From Escherichia phage HY02: a stretch of 64,000 nt of DNA. The position numbers and the translations under genes are program-made. The stretch is from the sequence record KM092515. One strand, given 5' to 3'. Within the stretch, counting starts at the first letter, position 1. Each line of letters opens with the position of its first letter. Under the pieces are notes generated by a model that saw only the letters and a program-made list of their open reading frames with translations, made no database searches and was not told the DNA's origin. Shown here one piece after another: positions 3,090 to 7,913 of the stretch.

Positions 3090-3166
3090 TCTGTTTAGCT
3101 CAGCTTGGTAGAGCGTTCCGTTTGGGGCGGTAAGGCCGGAGGTTCAAGTCCTCCAACAGAGACCAA
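3090..3166 (+). tRNA. tRNA-Pro (anticodon TGG)
   Basis: Manual cloverleaf: 7-bp acceptor CTCTGTT/AACAGAG, D-arm AGCTCAGCTTGGTAGAGC, T-loop GGTTCAAGTCC, encoded CCA. Confidence 0.8.
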
Positions 3167-3173
3167 ATTAATG

Positions 3174-3251
3174 TTCCAGTAGACAAAATGGTATAGTCAC
3201 CACTCTTTCAAAGTGGATATTTGAGGGTTCAAATCCATTCTGGAACGCCAG
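3174..3251 (+). tRNA. tRNA-Glu (anticodon TTC)
   Basis: Acceptor GTTCCAG/CTGGAAC, anticodon stem CCACT/AGTGG with loop CTTTCAA, T-loop GGTTCAAATCC, encoded CCA. Confidence 0.8.
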
Positions 3252-3258
3252 TTTTGAC

Positions 3259-3330
3259 AGAAGACCAATTACAGCAAACTTAATCTTATTCATCTGAAGG
3301 TAAATCGGACAAAGAAGAGATTTGGTCTGG
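3259..3330 (+). ncRNA. stem-bracketed small RNA candidate, copy A (CAGAAGACC...GGTCTGG family)
   Basis: 5' arm CAGAAGACCAA pairs with 3' arm TTGGTCTGG (7 bp) around about 55 nt; interior starts with the conserved TTACAGCAA block; no ORF. Confidence 0.4.
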
Positions 3331-3341
3331 TCATTAAGAAT

Positions 3342-3418
3342 TGCGGGTATAGAGAAAGGGCGTCTCACATGTCTCATTAGCATGGTATCGGCAGGTTCGA
3401 CTCCTGCACCCGCCTCCA
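3342..3418 (+). tRNA. tRNA-Met or Ile2 (anticodon CAT)
   Basis: Anticodon stem CATGT/GCATG with loop CTCATTA; T-arm GCAGG-TTCGACT-CCTGC; acceptor with a first-pair mismatch; encoded CCA. Confidence 0.7.
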
Positions 3419-3424
3419 ATTTTG

Positions 3425-3484
3425 CAGAAGACCGTATTCAGCAATAAACTACTTTTTGCGGATAAAAGAAAAAACACGGTCTGG
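3425..3484 (+). ncRNA. stem-bracketed small RNA candidate, copy B
   Basis: CAGAAGACCGT at 3425 pairs with ACGGTCTGG at 3476-3484; interior begins ATTCAGCAA; lies between two tRNAs. Confidence 0.4.
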
Positions 3485-3495
3485 CAACGTATTAA

Positions 3496-3571
3496 GGTTA
3501 GGAAGCACATGAGGTATGTGCGGTCGCCTGTTAAGCGAATGGCACAGGGTTCGAATCCCTGACTAACCGCA
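3496..3571 (+). tRNA. tRNA-Asn (anticodon GTT)
   Basis: Acceptor GGTTAGG/ACTAACC (6 bp), D-stem GCAC/GTGC, anticodon loop CTGTTAA, T-arm CAGGG-TTCGAAT-CCCTG; CCA not fully encoded. Confidence 0.65.
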
Positions 3572-3580
3572 AATTTAAAT

Positions 3581-3668
3581 GTGTCGTTATCCCGTAGATG
3601 GTAGCGGTGGGGACTGTAAATCCCTTGTCATTGAGACTCGGTAGGTTCGACTCCTACACGGCACACCA
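3581..3668 (+). tRNA. tRNA-Tyr (anticodon GTA), type II
   Basis: 88 nt; acceptor GTGTCGT/ACGGCAC, anticodon stem GGGGA/TCCCT with loop CTGTAAA, long variable arm, T-arm GTAGG-TTCGACT-CCTAC, encoded CCA. Confidence 0.75.
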
Positions 3669-3695
3669 ATTTTGAGAGGGCTATTTAGCCCCTCC

Positions 3696-3730
3696 CTTAA
3701 AGGGTTCTTACGAGTATCCTTTAAAGGAGC
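3696..3730 (+). repeat. conserved hairpin motif GGGTTCTTACGAGTATCC flanked by CCTTTAAAGG palindromes
   Basis: Near-identical copy at 6800-6833 (CTTCTAAGGATTCTTACGAGAGTCCTTAGAAG); degenerate copies near 4541-4570 and 5150-5230. Confidence 0.5.
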
Positions 3731-3802
3731 AGAAGACCAAATACAGCAAGTTATTTAAAATTTCAAGCCAATTCAATTTTGAAAATTTAAAACTTGGTCT
3801 GG
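3730..3802 (+). ncRNA. stem-bracketed small RNA candidate, copy C
   Basis: CAGAAGACCAA at 3730 pairs with TTGGTCTGG at 3794-3802; interior begins ATACAGCAA; AT-rich interior. Confidence 0.4.
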
Positions 3803-3815
3803 CTCAACAAATTTA

Positions 3816-5995: not shown

Positions 5996-6553
5996 ATGAG
6001 ATACTTGAAGTATGCTTCATGGATTTTCTTAGCTTTGCTAGAACCATTGGCAGCAATCTTAGCAGTTATCTTAGCACCTTTTGTAGTTCCATTTTACAGT
6101 GAGAAGAAAGGACACTTACCTTTTGGATTCAGATGGATGGAGACATATGACAACCTGATTGATGGTGATGAAGGTCACGTTAAAAGATGGGCTAAGATTA
6201 GAAAGATTGGTAAGCTTGGTGTCTATTTGCAGAGAGTTGGATGGCTCTGGAGAAACAAAGCTTATAACTTCTCTTACCATGTGTTAGGAAGAGATGTAAA
6301 AGATGTTACTAAGTGGAAAGGTAATATCAACGTAAGTTCTGACCCTGAAGATAATCAGACAGGTTATCTCCTAATGTGGAACAGTAATGCTTGGGGATTA
6401 TTCGCTTTTATCCCATCAATTAAAGTCTTTGGTAAACAATTCTACTGGAGAATTTATGTTGGATGGAAGCTAAAAAGTGTTGTCCCAGAAGAAAGAGCAT
6501 TCTCAAGGGAAAGAGTTATGTTGGCATTCTTTATTCATCCACTGAGAAAGTAA
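5996..6553 (+). CDS. hypothetical membrane protein embedded in the tRNA array
   Basis: 185-aa ORF with AAAGAGG RBS; strongly hydrophobic N-terminus (ASWIFLALLEPLAAILAVILAPFVVPF) and Trp-rich body; tRNAs on both sides. Confidence 0.6.
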   Translation: MRYLKYASWIFLALLEPLAAILAVILAPFVVPFYSEKKGHLPFGFRWMETYDNLIDGDEGHVKRWAKIRKIGKLGVYLQRVGWLWRNKAYNFSYHVLGRDVKDVTKWKGNINVSSDPEDNQTGYLLMWNSNAWGLFAFIPSIKVFGKQFYWRIYVGWKLKSVVPEERAFSRERVMLAFFIHPLRK

Positions 6554-6561
6554 AGATTTAA

Positions 6562-6637
6562 AGGGGATTAGTTTACAAGGTTAAAACCTCGGTCTTTGAA
6601 ATCGAAGAAGTTGGTTCAATTCCAACATCCCCCGCCA
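6562..6637 (+). tRNA. tRNA-Gln (anticodon TTG)
   Basis: Acceptor AGGGGAT/ATCCCCC (A1-C72 mismatch), anticodon stem TCGGT/ATCGA with loop CTTTGAA, T-arm GTTGG-TTCAATT-CCAAC, encoded CCA. Confidence 0.7.
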
Positions 6638-6639
6638 AT

Positions 6640-6718
6640 GCTCCATTACTCCAATTGGCAGAGAGGCCAGACTTAAAATCTGTGTTATGTATCGGTTCGA
6701 ATCCGATATGGAGTACCA
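6640..6718 (+). tRNA. tRNA with anticodon TAA (Leu-type anticodon, short variable arm; isotype uncertain)
   Basis: Acceptor GCTCCAT/ATGGAGT, anticodon loop CTTAAAA with a 4-bp stem, T-arm ATCGG-TTCGAAT-CCGAT, encoded CCA; 79 nt. Confidence 0.55.
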
Positions 6719-6723
6719 AATTT

Positions 6724-6799
6724 AGCGGTATAGCATAACTGGCAATGCAGCAGTCTCTGAAGCTGTCTTATTAAGGTTCAAATCCTTATGCCGCTGCCA
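6724..6799 (+). tRNA. tRNA-Gln (anticodon CTG)
   Basis: Acceptor AGCGGTA/TGCCGCT, anticodon stem GCAGT/GCTGT with loop CTCTGAA, T-arm TAAGG-TTCAAAT-CCTTA, encoded CCA. Confidence 0.7.
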
Positions 6800-6833
6800 C
6801 TTCTAAGGATTCTTACGAGAGTCCTTAGAAGTG
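6800..6833 (+). repeat. second copy of the GGATTCTTACGAGAGTCC hairpin motif flanked by CTTCTAAGG/CCTTAGAAG
   Basis: Direct comparison with 3696-3730; sits between tRNA-Gln and tRNA-His. Confidence 0.5.
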
Positions 6834-6906
6834 GCCTTATCATAAATGGTAATGACCCATGCTGTGAACATGGTCTATACGGGTTCAAATCCCGTAGGTC
6901 ACCCCA
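6831..6906 (+). tRNA. tRNA-His (anticodon GTG)
   Basis: Acceptor GTGGCCT/AGGTCAC, D-arm TCAT-AAATGGTA-ATGA, anticodon stem CCATG/CATGG with loop CTGTGAA, discriminator C73, encoded CCA. Confidence 0.75.
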
Positions 6907-6911
6907 ATTTA

Positions 6912-6988
6912 TAGTCCAAGTAGCTTATATGGTTAAAGCGCGTGTCTGAAAAACATGAGAAGAGGGTTCAAATCCCACTGGACTACCA
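6912..6988 (+). tRNA. tRNA-Phe (anticodon GAA)
   Basis: Acceptor TAGTCCA/TGGACTA, anticodon stem CGTGT/ACATG with loop CTGAAAA, T-loop GGTTCAAATCC; CCA only partly encoded. Confidence 0.7.
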
Positions 6989-7004
6989 ATTTCAAAGGTG
7001 CTTA

Positions 7005-7739
7005 ATGAAAGAGATGACAGAACAAGGTAAGGAGATTTTTAATCTCTTAAAAACTGGTAAAGGGTTTTCTAACCCCCTTATTACTGGTGCAGCAGTTCTC
7101 GGTGGAACCGTAGCTGCCTCTACATCACTTGTAAGCTCTATTAGCTCTGTATCAGACCCTACAGTAAAGGATAAGCTTGTTGCTGCTGGACTTACAACAG
7201 TTCTGCTTAACAGCTTTACCACGAGTCTGACAAGCACTACATCAACTACCAAAACACTAACAGATTACGGTCAAAAGTCCATTGATGAGTTTTCATCACG
7301 TATGCAGGTAGCAAAAGGTTACTCTAATGTTATGGGTGCAGCAGGTGAACAAGTTGGCTGTACACCATTTAGTGGTATTATGGGTGTTGCTACAGAGTAT
7401 GGTCAAAAAGCTATTGATACGATTAACAGTGCACTAGATAGTGTTAATGGTGTGTTAAGTGACTTACAAGATGCTATTGACAAAGGTCTTGATACTATTT
7501 CTGATTTAGCTGAGCAAGCTGTTAGTAAGATTAATGAAGGTATTTCAAAAATTACAGCTTATGCAGATGAAGTTGTGCAGATGATTGAAGAAGAAGCTGC
7601 TCTTATTGCAGAGTACCTTAAAACGAATATCAATGGGTTCTTAGCAGGTATCTTACCAGACTGGTTTGATGATGCTTGTAAAACTGGTGTGATTGACACT
7701 ATTGCAACACCAGAAATGAAGAACGCATTACAGAAATAA
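7005..7739 (+). CDS. hypothetical protein with Ser/Thr-rich segment (start moved downstream of tRNA-Phe)
   Basis: ORF 6942..7739 overlaps tRNA-Phe; the in-frame ATG at 7005 has an AAAGGTG RBS right after the tRNA 3' end. Confidence 0.55.
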   Translation: MKEMTEQGKEIFNLLKTGKGFSNPLITGAAVLGGTVAASTSLVSSISSVSDPTVKDKLVAAGLTTVLLNSFTTSLTSTTSTTKTLTDYGQKSIDEFSSRMQVAKGYSNVMGAAGEQVGCTPFSGIMGVATEYGQKAIDTINSALDSVNGVLSDLQDAIDKGLDTISDLAEQAVSKINEGISKITAYADEVVQMIEEEAALIAEYLKTNINGFLAGILPDWFDDACKTGVIDTIATPEMKNALQK

Positions 7740-7740
7740 T

Positions 7741-7833
7741 GGAAGATTAACCCTAAAAGGTAAGGGAGCAGTTTGCTAAACTGCCAGTAGCTGAGAAATC
7801 GGTGTACCAGTTCAAGTCTGGTATCTTCCTCCA
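7741..7833 (+). tRNA. tRNA-Ser (anticodon GCT), type II
   Basis: 93 nt; perfect acceptor GGAAGAT/ATCTTCC, anticodon stem GCAGT/ACTGC with loop TTGCTAA, long variable arm, T-arm ACCAG-TTCAAGT-CTGGT, encoded CCA. Confidence 0.8.
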
Positions 7834-7837
7834 ATTT

Positions 7838-7913
7838 GAATCCGTGACAGAAATGGCTATGTGCCTGTCTGCAAAACAGGTTTATAAGGGTTCGAGTCCC
7901 TTCGGATTCTCCA
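7838..7913 (+). tRNA. tRNA-Cys (anticodon GCA)
   Basis: Perfect acceptor GAATCCG/CGGATTC, anticodon stem CCTGT/ACAGG with loop CTGCAAA, T-loop GGTTCGAGTCC, encoded CCA. Confidence 0.8.

What the first reader, a model, noticed from the sequence alone, without database searches (positions are those of the whole stretch)
3090..7913. Array of 26 tRNA genes with an embedded membrane-protein gene and an internal promoter
Manual folding gives 26 tRNAs in about 4.8 kb, all on the plus strand and most with encoded CCA. Two CAT-anticodon tRNAs and paired isoacceptors for Lys, Gln, Arg and Ser are present. The array is interrupted by structured spacers, an internal TTGACA/TATAGT promoter (4345-4373) and a 185-aa membrane protein ORF (5996-6553), and closes with tandem terminators.
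Basis: seen in the sequence. Interest (0 to 1): 0.5.

Follow-up and report, generated by a model that had tools for sequence, protein, structure and literature searches.

The report
Felix O1-type phage tRNA cluster
This is the already-described tRNA gene cluster of a Felix O1-like (Felixounavirus) coliphage, but its unannotated "spacers" appear to encode small RNAs of two known kinds: Y-RNA-like partners for the Ro60-like protein encoded just upstream, and a tmRNA-like tag template.

Summary
ARAGORN finds 25 tRNA genes at 3089-7913, all on the + strand, and 23 carry an encoded CCA. The two CAT tRNAs, the Lys/Gln/Arg/Ser isoacceptor pairs, the TTGACA-17-TATAGT promoter, the 185-aa ORF and the closing terminator hairpins are all present. 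The likely 26th gene is a non-canonical Trp(CCA)-like tRNA at 4796-4878 that the automated tools miss.

The window is about 97% identical to many sequenced Felixounaviruses. The array and the internal promoter (Felix O1 "P45") were published in 2010, so the array itself is already known. This genome has precisely lost tRNA-Asp.

The new content lies in the spacers.

1. Four paralogous structured RNAs (U1-U4, 3255-3950) share a covarying closing helix and a UACAGCAA motif. U4 holds a permuted tRNA-like domain of the YrlA type. The gene directly upstream (1508-2923) folds like Ro60. A covariance model built from U4 finds full-length matches near Ro60-like genes in five distant phage lineages.

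2. The internal promoter drives a tmRNA-like block (4379-4537). It has a resume-codon context, a 10-codon tag (ANDNVFLAVA) with two stops, and a pseudoknot, but no tRNA-like domain. Unannotated homologues occur in lambdoid prophages and phage-plasmids.

All functions are inferred; none was tested.

The parts
1508..2923 (+). Ro60-like protein gene (DUF2828 + DUF7788/vWA; PHROG 850 'RNA-binding protein'), directly upstream of the array
   Evidence: Pfam and PHROG hits. AlphaFold2 model has pLDDT 87.9. The top 12 Foldseek PDB hits are all Ro60/TROVE, full length, E 8e-9 to 2e-6, TM 0.43-0.63.
2942..3062 (+). Two sigma-70-like promoter matches (2942-2970 and 3033-3062) upstream of tRNA-Pro
   Evidence: 10 of 12 each. 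Consensus matches only.
3089..3165 (+). tRNA-Pro(TGG)
3173..3250 (+). tRNA-Glu(TTC)
3255..3333 (+). U1, Y-RNA-like unit: closing helix, AGA/G internal loop, UUACAGCAA motif
   Evidence: model R1 35.8 bits
3342..3418 (+). tRNA-Met(CAT) no. 1; atypical, with a U1-C72 mismatch and U37
   Evidence: ARAGORN. Not found by the Rfam tRNA model.
3422..3487 (+). U2, Y-RNA-like unit
   Evidence: R1 43 bits; Rfam Class I RNA model 24.4 bits
3496..3570 (+). tRNA-Asn(GTT), no encoded CCA
3581..3668 (+). tRNA-Tyr(GTA). tRNA-Asp, which follows it in relatives, is precisely deleted here.
3727..3805 (+). U3, Y-RNA-like unit
3813..3950 (+). U4, YrlA-like unit: closing helix enclosing a V hairpin, T arm (3864-3880), 7-bp capped acceptor-like hairpin (3881-3898) and D arm
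   Evidence: RNAalifold on 6 orthologues, with 3 compensatory pairs in the capped stem. Model R1 hits in distant phages.
3949..4091 (+). Long inverted repeat (22-bp stem, 99-nt loop) before tRNA-Lys
   Evidence: z = -6.2
4096..4171 (+). tRNA-Lys(TTT)
4176..4252 (+). tRNA-Met(CAT) no. 2
4254..4329 (+). tRNA-Ile(GAT)
4345..4373 (+). Internal promoter TTGACA-17-TATAGT (equivalent to Felix O1 'P45')
   Evidence: 11 of 12. Whichard 2010, PMC3185647. The exact 29-mer is present in L001, L002 and L006.
4379..4537 (+). tmRNA-like block: tag frame ANDNVFLAVA + TGA TAG (4423-4458), helix with the stops in its loop (4441-4470), hairpin (4471-4490), pseudoknot (4504-4537). No tRNA-like domain.
4577..4653 (+). 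tRNA-Arg(TCT)
4796..4878 (+). Non-canonical tRNA-Trp(CCA)-like gene: A1-U72, G73, CCA end, anticodon loop CUCCAAA, about 10 extra nt before a 3-bp D stem
   Evidence: 10 of 20 pairs compensatory. Not annotated in any relative inspected.
4892..4981 (+). tRNA-Ser(TGA), no encoded CCA
5147..5236 (+). Long near-perfect hairpin (26-nt arms) before tRNA-Leu
   Evidence: z = -4.1
5238..5315 (+). tRNA-Leu(TAG)
5323..5398 (+). tRNA-Lys(CTT)
5405..5480 (+). tRNA-Ala(TGC)
5487..5561 (+). tRNA-Gly(TCC)
5569..5644 (+). tRNA-Thr(TGT)
5742..5816 (+). tRNA-Val(TAC)
5818..5895 (+). tRNA-Leu(CAA)
5901..5976 (+). tRNA-Arg(ACG)
5996..6553 (+). Embedded ORF, 185 aa, DUF7338, one N-terminal membrane helix. Absent from Mooglevirus arrays.
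6562..6637 (+). tRNA-Gln(TTG)
6640..6718 (+). tRNA-Leu(TAA)
6724..6799 (+). tRNA-Gln(CTG)
6796..6835 (+). 18-bp hairpin bridging the 3' end of tRNA-Gln and the 5' end of tRNA-His
   Evidence: z = -8.9. Sequence is conserved but shows no covariation.
6831..6906 (+). tRNA-His(GTG)
6913..6988 (+). tRNA-Phe(GAA)
7005..7739 (+). Second embedded ORF, 244 aa, DUF7217
7741..7833 (+). tRNA-Ser(GCT)
7838..7913 (+). tRNA-Cys(GCA)
7951..8100 (+). Terminator-like hairpins: 7951-8004 + U run, 8012-8052, 8076-8093 + T run
   Evidence: z = -6.8

Best explanation
SHOWN. This is the conserved tRNA gene cluster of a Felixounavirus (Ounavirinae), lying between a Ro60-like gene and the terminase genes. It holds 25 canonical tRNA genes plus one non-canonical Trp(CCA)-like gene, all on one strand. 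Together they cover 19 amino acids; Asp was lost by a precise deletion. The set is close to a minimal decoding set: one U34 tRNA per four-codon box, G34 tRNAs for the pyrimidine-ending boxes, and pairs for Lys, Gln and Arg.

INFERRED. Host RNA polymerase transcribes the cluster rightwards from sigma-70-type promoters at about 2942/3033 and at 4345. The polycistronic precursors are cut by host tRNA-processing enzymes (RNase P, RNase E/Z, perhaps RNase III at the long perfect hairpins). The tRNAs then top up the host pool for the A/U-ending codons the phage prefers (AGA, ACA, AAG, UCA, CUA, CCA, GUA), and buffer translation if host tRNAs are depleted or cleaved.

SHOWN. Two other kinds of conserved structured RNA are interleaved with the tRNAs.
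1. Four paralogous units, U1-U4, share a covarying closing helix and a UACAGCAA motif. U4 carries a permuted tRNA-like domain (V, T, capped acceptor, D), which is the YrlA layout.
2. A tmRNA-like block lies downstream of the internal promoter.

INFERRED. tRNA processing on either side releases U1-U4, which then assemble with the Ro60-like protein as Y-RNA-type ribonucleoproteins. The tmRNA-like block either supplies or mimics a trans-translation tag template.
For: Identity and prior description:
- 95-99% identity to 188 phage records, and at least 80% coverage in 241.
- The same gene order is annotated in VpaE1_ev108, pinkbiff, garuso, SP116, phiSUSP1, Mordin and Sf16.
- The Felix O1 paper lists the tRNAs and the promoter TTGACA(17)TATAGT.

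tRNAs.
- Trp-like gene: 10 of 20 pairs compensatory across three genera, with CCA anticodon, A1-U72 and G73 retained.
- Codon match: ratio 1.45 against 0.94, p=0.013; AGA is 4.5-fold enriched.

Ro60-like fold. The same is reported for Bas63 gp130, which lies directly upstream of that phage's tRNAs and counters the Ppl defence (PMC11482910).

U units:
- The motif occurs 4 times in the window against 0.23 expected by chance.
- In the closing helix, 264 of 264 cells are paired and 5 of 11 pairs show compensatory changes. No shuffle out of 500 reaches the observed score, and shifted-register controls give 21-45% paired.
- RNAalifold predicts the V-T-AS-D layout.
- Model R1, built only from Ounavirinae U4 sequences, hits near the Ro60-like gene or in the adjacent tRNA array of distant phages: L010 63.6 and 52.1 bits, L012 53.9, L011 36.5, L009 34.5, L014 27.9, with E from 1e-13 to 2e-4. 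It finds nothing in L013, which has no tRNAs nearby.
- Rfam's YrlA model gives 40.9 bits (E = 1.5e-7) in L010 and 31.4 bits in L012.

tmRNA-like block.
Against: - There is no expression, processing, binding or aminoacylation data. Promoters and terminators are consensus matches, and the promoter count in the region (15) is no higher than in shuffled sequence (13.9).
- The host codon table was taken from memory.
- The PhageMaP preprint found Bas63 tRNAs mostly non-essential on four laboratory strains. Relatives each lack a different tRNA, and SP116 lacks U4, so individual members are dispensable.
- No U unit in the window reaches any Rfam gathering score. The known Ro-binding motifs (GNCGAAN0-1G, GGUCCGA) are not present as such; the units have RCAGAAG instead.
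- The protein matches DUF2828, not Pfam's TROVE family, and sequence searches against the PDB find nothing.
- The covariation in the U closing helix comes from only about 4 paralogue lineages.
- The tmRNA-like block has no tRNA-like domain in this genome.
Confidence: 0.8

Rival explanations
1. The array exists mainly as a counter-defence. By carrying its own near-complete tRNA set, the phage stays able to translate when host anticodon nucleases or other tRNA-depleting defences are triggered. Codon matching would then be secondary.
For: - The set covers 19 amino acids, and all 20 in relatives that keep Asp. That is far more than the 7 or so tRNAs that codon bias would call for.
- It includes tRNAs for codons the phage does not over-use: CAG 0.62, AGC 0.47, CGT 0.76, ATC 0.75 relative to the host.
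- Papers seen here cite phage tRNAs as escape from tRNA nucleases (reference lists: van den Berg 2023, Azam 2024).
- The neighbouring Ro60-like gene is itself reported as an anti-defence gene.
Against: No defence system was tested here, and the anticodon loops were not compared with host tRNAs. This reading does not exclude the codon-supply model.
Confidence: 0.4
2. U1-U4 are not trans-acting RNAs. They are decayed or rearranged tRNA genes and processing spacers, and their stems only guide cleavage of the precursor.
For: - They abut tRNA genes: U1 starts 5 nt after Glu and ends 9 nt before Met; U2 starts 4 nt after Met and ends 9 nt before Asn.
- U4 contains tRNA pieces.
- SP116 lacks U4.
- No unit reaches an Rfam gathering score.
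Against: - The UACAGCAA motif and the closing helix are invariant or covarying across three genera and four paralogues.
- The same architecture recurs next to Ro60-like genes in lineages whose protein is only 46-53% identical.
- In L010, five units sit directly behind the gene with their own promoter and before any tRNA.
- Decayed genes would not keep compensatory changes in a capped acceptor stem.
Confidence: 0.25
3. The tmRNA-like block at 4379-4537 is a relic of a captured tmRNA-like gene, or a cis-acting 5' leader for tRNA-Arg(TCT). It is not a working tag template.
For: - There is no tRNA-like domain and no acceptor closure in the window.
- Rfam scores are below gathering (29.2 and 15.9 bits against 47).
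- ARAGORN needs a relaxed threshold to call it.
- It is absent from the related Yersinia phage array L009.
- A complete closure is seen only in one plasmid homologue, L017.
Against: - The block is nearly invariant across Felixouna-, Moogle- and Suspviruses, while the neighbouring spacers vary.
- Five tag variants all keep 10 codons, the AN(D/E) start, the L(A/M)(V/A)A end and the stops.
- Compensatory changes occur in the stop-containing helix, the hairpin and both pseudoknot stems.
- It has its own strong promoter.
Confidence: 0.45
4. The Trp(CCA)-like element at 4796-4878 is a pseudogene rather than a working tRNA.
For: - It is missed by ARAGORN at default settings and by Rfam at gathering score, and found only as tRNA-Sec at 23 bits, E = 0.37.
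- It is 83 nt long, with about 10 extra nt between the acceptor and a 3-bp D stem, and a C-A mismatch closing the anticodon stem.
Against: - Compensatory changes occur in the acceptor, anticodon, T and D stems across three genera.
- The anticodon loop CUCCAAA, A1-U72, G73 and the encoded CCA are kept. That these are E. coli tRNA-Trp identity elements is from memory.
- With this gene, the family's set would cover all 20 amino acids.
Confidence: 0.35

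Closest known systems
tRNA gene cluster of Salmonella phage Felix O1 and other Felixounavirus, Mooglevirus and Suspvirus genomes (Whichard et al. 2010, PMC3185647)
   Same: Same position (after the vWA/DUF2828 gene, before the terminase), same gene order and anticodons, same embedded DUF7338 and DUF7217 ORFs, and the same TTGACA-17-TATAGT promoter after tRNA-Ile. Nucleotide identity to E. coli members is about 97%.
   Different: This genome has lost tRNA-Asp through an 83-nt deletion between the CCAA ends of Tyr and Asp. Other members lack Tyr, Arg-TCT or Lys-TTT instead. Published annotations list 17-26 tRNAs and none of the spacer RNAs.
Ro60 / Y RNA ribonucleoproteins of bacteria and phages: YrlA/YrlB with Rsr; mycobacteriophages, CcrColossus, Bacillus phage G; Thermus phage phiLo Yrl1/2 (PMC4201824, PMC12135203)
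   Same: A ring-plus-vWA Ro60 fold, with several small RNA genes next to the protein gene. One of these RNAs has the V, T, capped-acceptor, D tRNA-like module inside a closing stem. Rfam's YrlA model recognises the homologous units in L010 and L012.
   Different: The protein belongs to Pfam DUF2828/DUF7788, not TROVE. The RNAs carry RCAGAAG and UACAGCAA instead of GNCGAAN0-1G/CGAA, are embedded in a tRNA array, and fall below Rfam's threshold. The literature held here only speculates that some annotated tRNAs of Bas63 might be Y RNAs.
tmRNA (SsrA), including two-piece tmRNAs and the phage ssrA genes of Bacillus phage G and cluster C mycobacteriophages (PMC4131195)
   Same: An A-rich resume context followed by GCA, a 10-codon tag starting AND and ending in small hydrophobic residues, stop codons in the loop of a helix, and a downstream pseudoknot. 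The tag resembles E. coli ANDENYALAA (from memory).
   Different: This genome has no acceptor stem, T arm or CCA belonging to the block. The tag ends AVA rather than LAA. The block lies in the leader of tRNA-Arg. Rfam scores are 29 and 16 bits against a gathering score of 47.
tRNA clusters of T4 and T5-like phages
   Same: Clustered tRNA genes transcribed as polycistronic precursors and interspersed with small ORFs, homing endonucleases and stable small RNAs (general knowledge). HNH endonuclease genes occupy spacers in some relatives.
   Different: A different phage family, a different gene order, and no sequence similarity beyond individual tRNAs.
Dictyostelium Class I RNAs (Rfam RF01414; PMC7919456)
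   Same: A short stem joining the 5' and 3' ends, a conserved single-stranded motif (CC)UUACAGCAA immediately after the 5' strand, a variable remainder, and a 3' ...CUG end. RF01414 is the only Rfam family that hits the short units: U2 24.4 bits, U1 19.7, L010 26-27, L011 27.4.
   Different: All scores are below the gathering score of 41.5. The host kingdom differs. Class I RNAs are reported as unique to Dictyostelia and bind an RRM protein. The resemblance may be chance.

Membership tests
Canonical bacterial-type tRNA genes | Cloverleaf detected by a dedicated predictor | tested here: met
   ARAGORN finds 25 genes; Rfam RF00005 is at or above its gathering score for 23.
Felixounavirus tRNA cluster | Nucleotide identity and conserved gene order with annotated Felixounavirus genomes | tested here: met
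   188 records at 95-99% identity; identical order of tRNAs and ORFs.
tRNA-Trp (element 4796-4878) | CCA anticodon in a 7-nt loop; A1-U72 and G73 (E. coli TrpRS identity elements, from memory); 3' CCA | tested here: met
   Sequence and alignment.
tRNA-Trp (element 4796-4878) | Canonical D arm and length; detection by ARAGORN or Rfam at standard thresholds | tested here: not met
   83 nt long, 3-bp D stem, about 10 extra nt. Found only at -ps80 or as tRNA-Sec at 23 bits, E = 0.37.
tRNA-Trp (element 4796-4878) | Aminoacylation with Trp | not testable with these tools
   Needs biochemistry.
Ro60 / TROVE proteins (gene 1508-2923) | HEAT-repeat ring plus vWA fold | tested here: met
   The top 12 Foldseek PDB hits are Ro60 from Xenopus, Deinococcus, human and Thermus phage, full length, E down to 8e-9.
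Ro60 / TROVE proteins (gene 1508-2923) | Match to the Pfam TROVE domain, or sequence-level similarity to solved Ro60 structures | tested here: not met
   Pfam gives DUF2828 + DUF7788 only. Single-sequence and profile searches of PDB sequences find nothing.
Ro60 / TROVE proteins (gene 1508-2923) | Binds Y RNA or misfolded RNA | not testable with these tools
   Needs a pull-down or gel-shift assay.
YrlA-type Y RNA (U4, 3813-3950) | V, T arm, capped acceptor-like stem and D arm, in that order, inside a stem formed by the 5' and 3' ends | tested here: met
   RNAalifold consensus with compensatory pairs, compared with the description in PMC4201824.
YrlA-type Y RNA (U4, 3813-3950) | Encoded next to a Ro60 gene | tested here: met
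   U1 starts 332 nt after the stop codon and U4 890 nt after it. The same association holds in L009-L012 and L014.
YrlA-type Y RNA (U4, 3813-3950) | Rfam RF02553 gathering score (69 bits) | tested here: not met
   No hit on the window's U4. Homologous units score 40.9, 31.4 and 25.8 bits.
YrlA-type Y RNA (U4, 3813-3950) | 5' GNCGAAN0-1G (or GGUCCGA) Ro-binding motif | tested here: not met
   The units carry RCAGAAGACC.
tmRNA (block 4379-4537) | Resume codon context, short tag frame with stops, and a downstream pseudoknot | tested here: met
tmRNA (block 4379-4537) | tRNA-like domain: acceptor stem with G3-U70, T arm, 3' CCA | tested here: not met
   No closure in the window. Only plasmid homologue L017 has an acceptor stem, T arm and CCA, and it has A3-U70.
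tmRNA (block 4379-4537) | Rfam RF00023 / RF04321 gathering score (47 bits) | tested here: not met
   15.9 and 29.2 bits.
Dictyostelium Class I RNA (U1-U3) | Terminal stem plus the adjacent 11-nt motif CCUUACAGCAA; RF01414 gathering score of 41.5 | tested here: inconclusive
   9 of the 11 motif positions and the geometry are shared, but scores are 19.7-27.4 bits.

The most novel reading that the evidence does not exclude
The tRNA cluster is an 'RNA toolkit' island. Beyond tRNAs, it would encode:
(a) a previously unrecognised family of Y-type RNAs (closing helix plus UACAGCAA, some with a YrlA-like permuted tRNA domain). These would be the real partners of the DUF2828-type Ro60-like anti-defence protein found next to tRNA arrays in many large virulent phages.
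(b) a tmRNA-derived tag template lacking a tRNA-like domain (tag ANDNVFLAVA), shared with lambdoid prophages and about 110-kb phage-plasmids of Enterobacteriaceae. It could redirect or jam host trans-translation.

A further stretch: the shared stem-UUACAGCAA design hints that Dictyostelium Class I RNAs might belong to the same RNA-protein system.
Probability: 0.45. Interest if true: 0.75.

Novelty: new variant of a known kind. Interest (0 to 1): 0.5.

Why it matters
The tRNA array itself adds nothing new. It is annotated in hundreds of Felixounavirus genomes and was analysed for Felix O1 in 2010.

What would matter is the content of the "spacers".
- A 2024 preprint showed that the Ro60-like protein of a sister phage counters the Ppl defence, and it guessed that some annotated tRNAs might be its Y RNAs. 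The present analysis points instead to four specific, unannotated RNAs, and to homologous RNAs in at least five other phage lineages. That makes the idea directly testable.
- A tmRNA-like tag template without a tRNA-like domain, spread among virulent phages, prophages and phage-plasmids, would be a new way for mobile elements to interact with ribosome rescue.
- Both kinds of element, and the odd Trp-like tRNA, are invisible to standard annotation pipelines.

Tried and rejected
- A genuine tmRNA in the window is rejected as a family member. ARAGORN at default settings finds none. The 'permuted tmRNA' that ARAGORN calls in Mordin joins U4's T arm and capped stem to a tag 600 nt away, across three tRNA genes. 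Rfam's permuted-tmRNA alignment borrows the T arm of tRNA-Ile.
- The block is not a copy of host ssrA. It matches only 347 of 5426 E. coli genomes, in prophage or plasmid contexts.
- A simple regex scan for 'six-base-pair arm plus CAGCAA' is not specific, because shuffled sequences give similar totals. I relied instead on covariance models and on clustering.
- The hairpin at 6796-6835 shows no covariation, so there is no evidence either way for a structural role.
- One CAT tRNA being a lysidine-type tRNA-Ile is not favoured. ATA is only 1.8 per 1000 codons in the phage. The initiator-like features are split between the two CAT genes, so their identity is left open.
- Sequence-only searches of the Ro60-like protein against the PDB found nothing; only the fold search worked.
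- Literature searches for DUF2828 and for tmRNA in Felixounavirus found nothing relevant.
- I could not test whether Dictyostelium has a DUF2828 protein.

Full report

ARAGORN finds 25 tRNA genes from 3089 to 7913, all on the + strand. Rfam's tRNA model exceeds its gathering score for 23 of them. Twenty-three end in an encoded CCA.

- The two CAT tRNAs and the Lys, Gln, Arg and Ser isoacceptor pairs.
- The promoter match TTGACA-17-TATAGT at 4345-4373, which scores 11 of 12 and is the best in the region.
- The 185-aa ORF at 5996-6553.
- The strong terminal hairpins with U runs.

The automated count is 25 rather than 26.

The most probable 26th gene is an 83-nt Trp(CCA)-like element at 4796-4878. 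ARAGORN reports it only at a relaxed threshold. However, it is conserved in Felixouna-, Moogle- and Suspviruses, and 10 of its 20 predicted pairs show compensatory double changes. It keeps the CUCCAAA anticodon loop, A1-U72, G73 and an encoded CCA. No relative I inspected annotates it.

**2. What is it?**

The 5-kb region is 95-99% identical to 188 deposited phage genomes, almost all Felixounavirus. The same order of tRNAs and ORFs is annotated in VpaE1_ev108, pinkbiff, garuso and SP116, and in the more distant phiSUSP1, Mordin and Sf16.

The Felix O1 genome paper lists the tRNAs and compares codon usage. A comparative paper reports 17-23 tRNAs per genome. The array as described is therefore already known.

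Run through ARAGORN, the closest relative VpaE1_ev108 has 26 canonical tRNAs. This window lacks Asp because of an 83-nt deletion between the CCAA ends of Tyr and Asp. Other members lack Tyr, Arg-TCT or Lys-TTT. Individual tRNAs are therefore dispensable.

The DUF7338 ORF has one N-terminal membrane helix and is absent from Mooglevirus arrays.

**3. How the array most likely works**

The anticodon set is close to a minimal decoding set.

Codons that match a phage tRNA exactly are used more by the phage than by E. coli: mean ratio 1.45 against 0.94, p=0.013. AGA is enriched 4.5-fold, ACA 2.6-fold, AAG 2.5-fold and TCA 2.2-fold (the host table is from memory). This agrees with the Felix O1 paper.

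The breadth of the set, and the presence of tRNAs for codons the phage does not favour, also fit a buffering or counter-defence role. The two roles are not exclusive.

Transcription from sigma-70-type promoters and processing by host tRNA enzymes are inferred. The promoter scan as a whole is not enriched over shuffled sequence.

**4. The spacers: Y-RNA-like units**

The gene immediately upstream (1508-2923) matches DUF2828 + DUF7788. My AlphaFold2 model has pLDDT 87.9. Its 12 best PDB matches are all Ro60 proteins, aligned over their full length.

A preprint reports the same for gp130 of the Felixounavirus Bas63. It shows that gp130 counters the Ppl defence, and speculates that some annotated tRNAs might be Y RNAs.

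Between tRNA-Glu and tRNA-Lys I found four paralogous units: U1 3255-3333, U2 3422-3487, U3 3727-3805 and U4 3813-3950. Their common design is a 4-bp helix, an AGA/G internal loop, the helix AGACCnn/nnGGUCU, and then the single-stranded motif UACAGCAA.
- The motif occurs four times in the 64-kb window, against 0.23 expected by chance.
- Across 24 distinct copies from nine genomes, all 264 base-pair cells of the closing helix are paired, and 5 of 11 pairs change on both sides. No shuffle out of 500 reaches the observed score. Shifted-register controls give only 21-45% paired.

U4 encloses a V hairpin, a canonical T arm, a 7-bp capped 'acceptor' hairpin with three compensatory pairs, and a D arm. 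That is the layout described for bacterial YrlA Y RNAs.

I built a covariance model only from Ounavirinae U4 sequences. It finds full-length matches near the Ro60-like gene, or in the adjacent tRNA array, of phages whose protein is only 46-53% identical:
- L010: 63.6 and 52.1 bits
- L012: 53.9 bits
- L011: 36.5 bits
- L009: 34.5 bits
- L014: 27.9 bits

These correspond to E-values from about 1e-13 to 2e-4. The model finds nothing in L013, the one locus without nearby tRNAs.

In L010, five units follow the gene directly, behind their own promoter. Rfam's YrlA model scores 40.9 bits (E = 1.5e-7) there and 31.4 bits in L012, below its threshold of 69.

Phage Ro60/Y-RNA pairs are known in mycobacteriophages, CcrColossus, Bacillus phage G and Thermus phage phiLo. 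This would therefore be a new variant, with a DUF2828-type protein and different motifs, rather than a new kind.

Binding of the RNAs to the protein is inferred, not shown.

**5. The spacers: a tmRNA-like block**

ARAGORN called a 'permuted tmRNA' with the tag ANDNVFLAVA** in Mordin. The same frame lies in the window at 4423-4458, about 50 nt downstream of the internal promoter.

Its features:
- It has no start codon in frame.
- Both Rfam tmRNA models align its A-rich resume context and tag with high posterior probability: 29.2 and 15.9 bits, E about 2e-4 to 3e-4 in a 411-nt search, below the gathering score of 47.
- The block 4379-4537 is almost invariant across three genera, while the flanking spacers vary.
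- It is absent from the Yersinia phage array L009.

Unannotated homologues at 72-81% identity occur in two settings. One is 347 of 5426 complete E. coli genomes, for example between the Q antiterminator and the holin of a lambdoid prophage. The other is 786 plasmids, mostly non-mobilizable, of Klebsiella, E. coli, Enterobacter, Salmonella and Yersinia; the best matches are about 104-126 kb, so they are probably phage-plasmids.

Their tags are ANDNAFLAVA, ANEEMYLAVA, ANDDVVLMAA and ANDNQCLAVA. All have ten codons, conserved ends, a free middle and retained stops.

Compensatory changes support three structures:
- a helix holding the stop codons in its loop;
- a hairpin;
- both stems of an H-type pseudoknot.

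Only one plasmid copy (L017) shows a tmRNA-type closure: 5' GGAGUGA, then a T arm followed by UCACUCU-C-CCA. The window copy has no tRNA-like domain, and tRNA-Arg(TCT) follows it instead.

A survey of tmRNA genes lists phage ssrA only in Bacillus phage G and in mycobacteriophages. Ro60 and Y RNAs have also been reported in Bacillus phage G and in mycobacteriophages.

Whether the block is a working template, a decoy or a relic is open.

**6. Verdict**

The finding is accurate, and its interpretation is right but ordinary: it is a known phage tRNA cluster.

The added value is that its 'structured spacers' and 'internal promoter' correspond to conserved, unannotated RNA genes of two known kinds in new variants, plus one non-canonical tRNA.

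My confidence by claim:
- Identity of the cluster: about 0.95.
- U1-U4 are functional structured RNAs: about 0.8.
- U1-U4 partner the Ro60-like protein: about 0.55.
- The tmRNA-like block acts in trans-translation: about 0.3.

Noticed in passing
window 3259-3835; L010 8534-8670; L011 6-63: The only Rfam family that hits the short U units is Dictyostelium Class I RNA (RF01414). Its defining design (terminal stem, adjacent CCUUACAGCAA motif, 3' CUG) matches the phage units' stem-UUACAGCAA...CUG. Scores are 19.7-27.4 bits, below the gathering score of 41.5. This may be chance. Whether Dictyostelia have DUF2828 proteins could not be checked.
   Followed up: partly
L015 3948-4210 (E. coli lambdoid prophage, between Q and holin); L016 about 2490-2680; L017 2460-2861 (Klebsiella plasmids): Unannotated homologues of the tmRNA-like block, with tags ANEEMYLAVA, ANDNQCLAVA and ANDDVVLMAA. 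L017 looks like a complete ~400-nt tmRNA-like gene: an acceptor pairing GGAGUGA/UCACUCU, a T arm and CCA, with A3-U70 instead of G3-U70. tRNA genes lie a few hundred nt downstream in both plasmids.
   Followed up: partly
window 3668/3669, compared with L001 2237-2319: tRNA-Asp(GTC), present in relatives, is removed by a precise 83-nt deletion between the CCAA 3' ends of tRNA-Tyr and tRNA-Asp. Each relative examined lacks a different member: Tyr in phiSUSP1 and Mordin, Arg-TCT in garuso, Lys-TTT and U4 in SP116.
   Followed up: yes
window 4744-4790: A possible fifth, degenerate U-like unit (GAGAAG-GGGCUU-UACAGUG...AAGCUUC-GA) sits just 5' of the Trp-like tRNA. The whole spacer 4654-4795 is almost invariant across three genera. 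Model R1 does not detect it.
   Followed up: partly
window 3703-3722 and 6806-6825; L009 about 9723-9755: Spacer hairpins share a conserved loop motif, (U)UCUUACGAG. Several other spacers form long near-perfect hairpins (3949-4091, 4538-4572, 5147-5236, 5649-5735). These may be RNase III-type processing sites. No covariation was seen in the one tested.
   Followed up: partly
window 2934-2970; L010 8455-8490: Immediately after the Ro60-like gene, a hairpin carries the -35 TTGACA box within it (overlapping its 5' arm and loop), so a terminator-like stem overlaps a promoter-like site. The same design recurs in the distant contig L010.
   Followed up: no
window 1055-1426; L009 6558-6917: A DUF5681 gene sits directly upstream of the Ro60-like gene, both here and in the distant Yersinia phage P778. 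This suggests a conserved gene pair.
   Followed up: no
L009 10009-10149; L012 9940-10015; L014 9153-9254: Short hits that span the whole Rfam tmRNA model (18-27 bits) inside other phages' tRNA arrays. The L009 element has an acceptor stem with G3-U70, a T arm and a D arm, but about 65 nt in place of the anticodon arm. It may be a tRNA-like or a tRNA-like-domain-only RNA.
   Followed up: no
L005 2232-2579; L006 1722-2207: HNH homing endonuclease genes occupy different spacers of the array in different relatives. None is present in this window's array.
   Followed up: no
window about 32000-42000: GC skew turns negative over about 10 kb, consistent with a block of minus-strand genes, as in the divergent transcription units described for Felix O1.
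   Followed up: no
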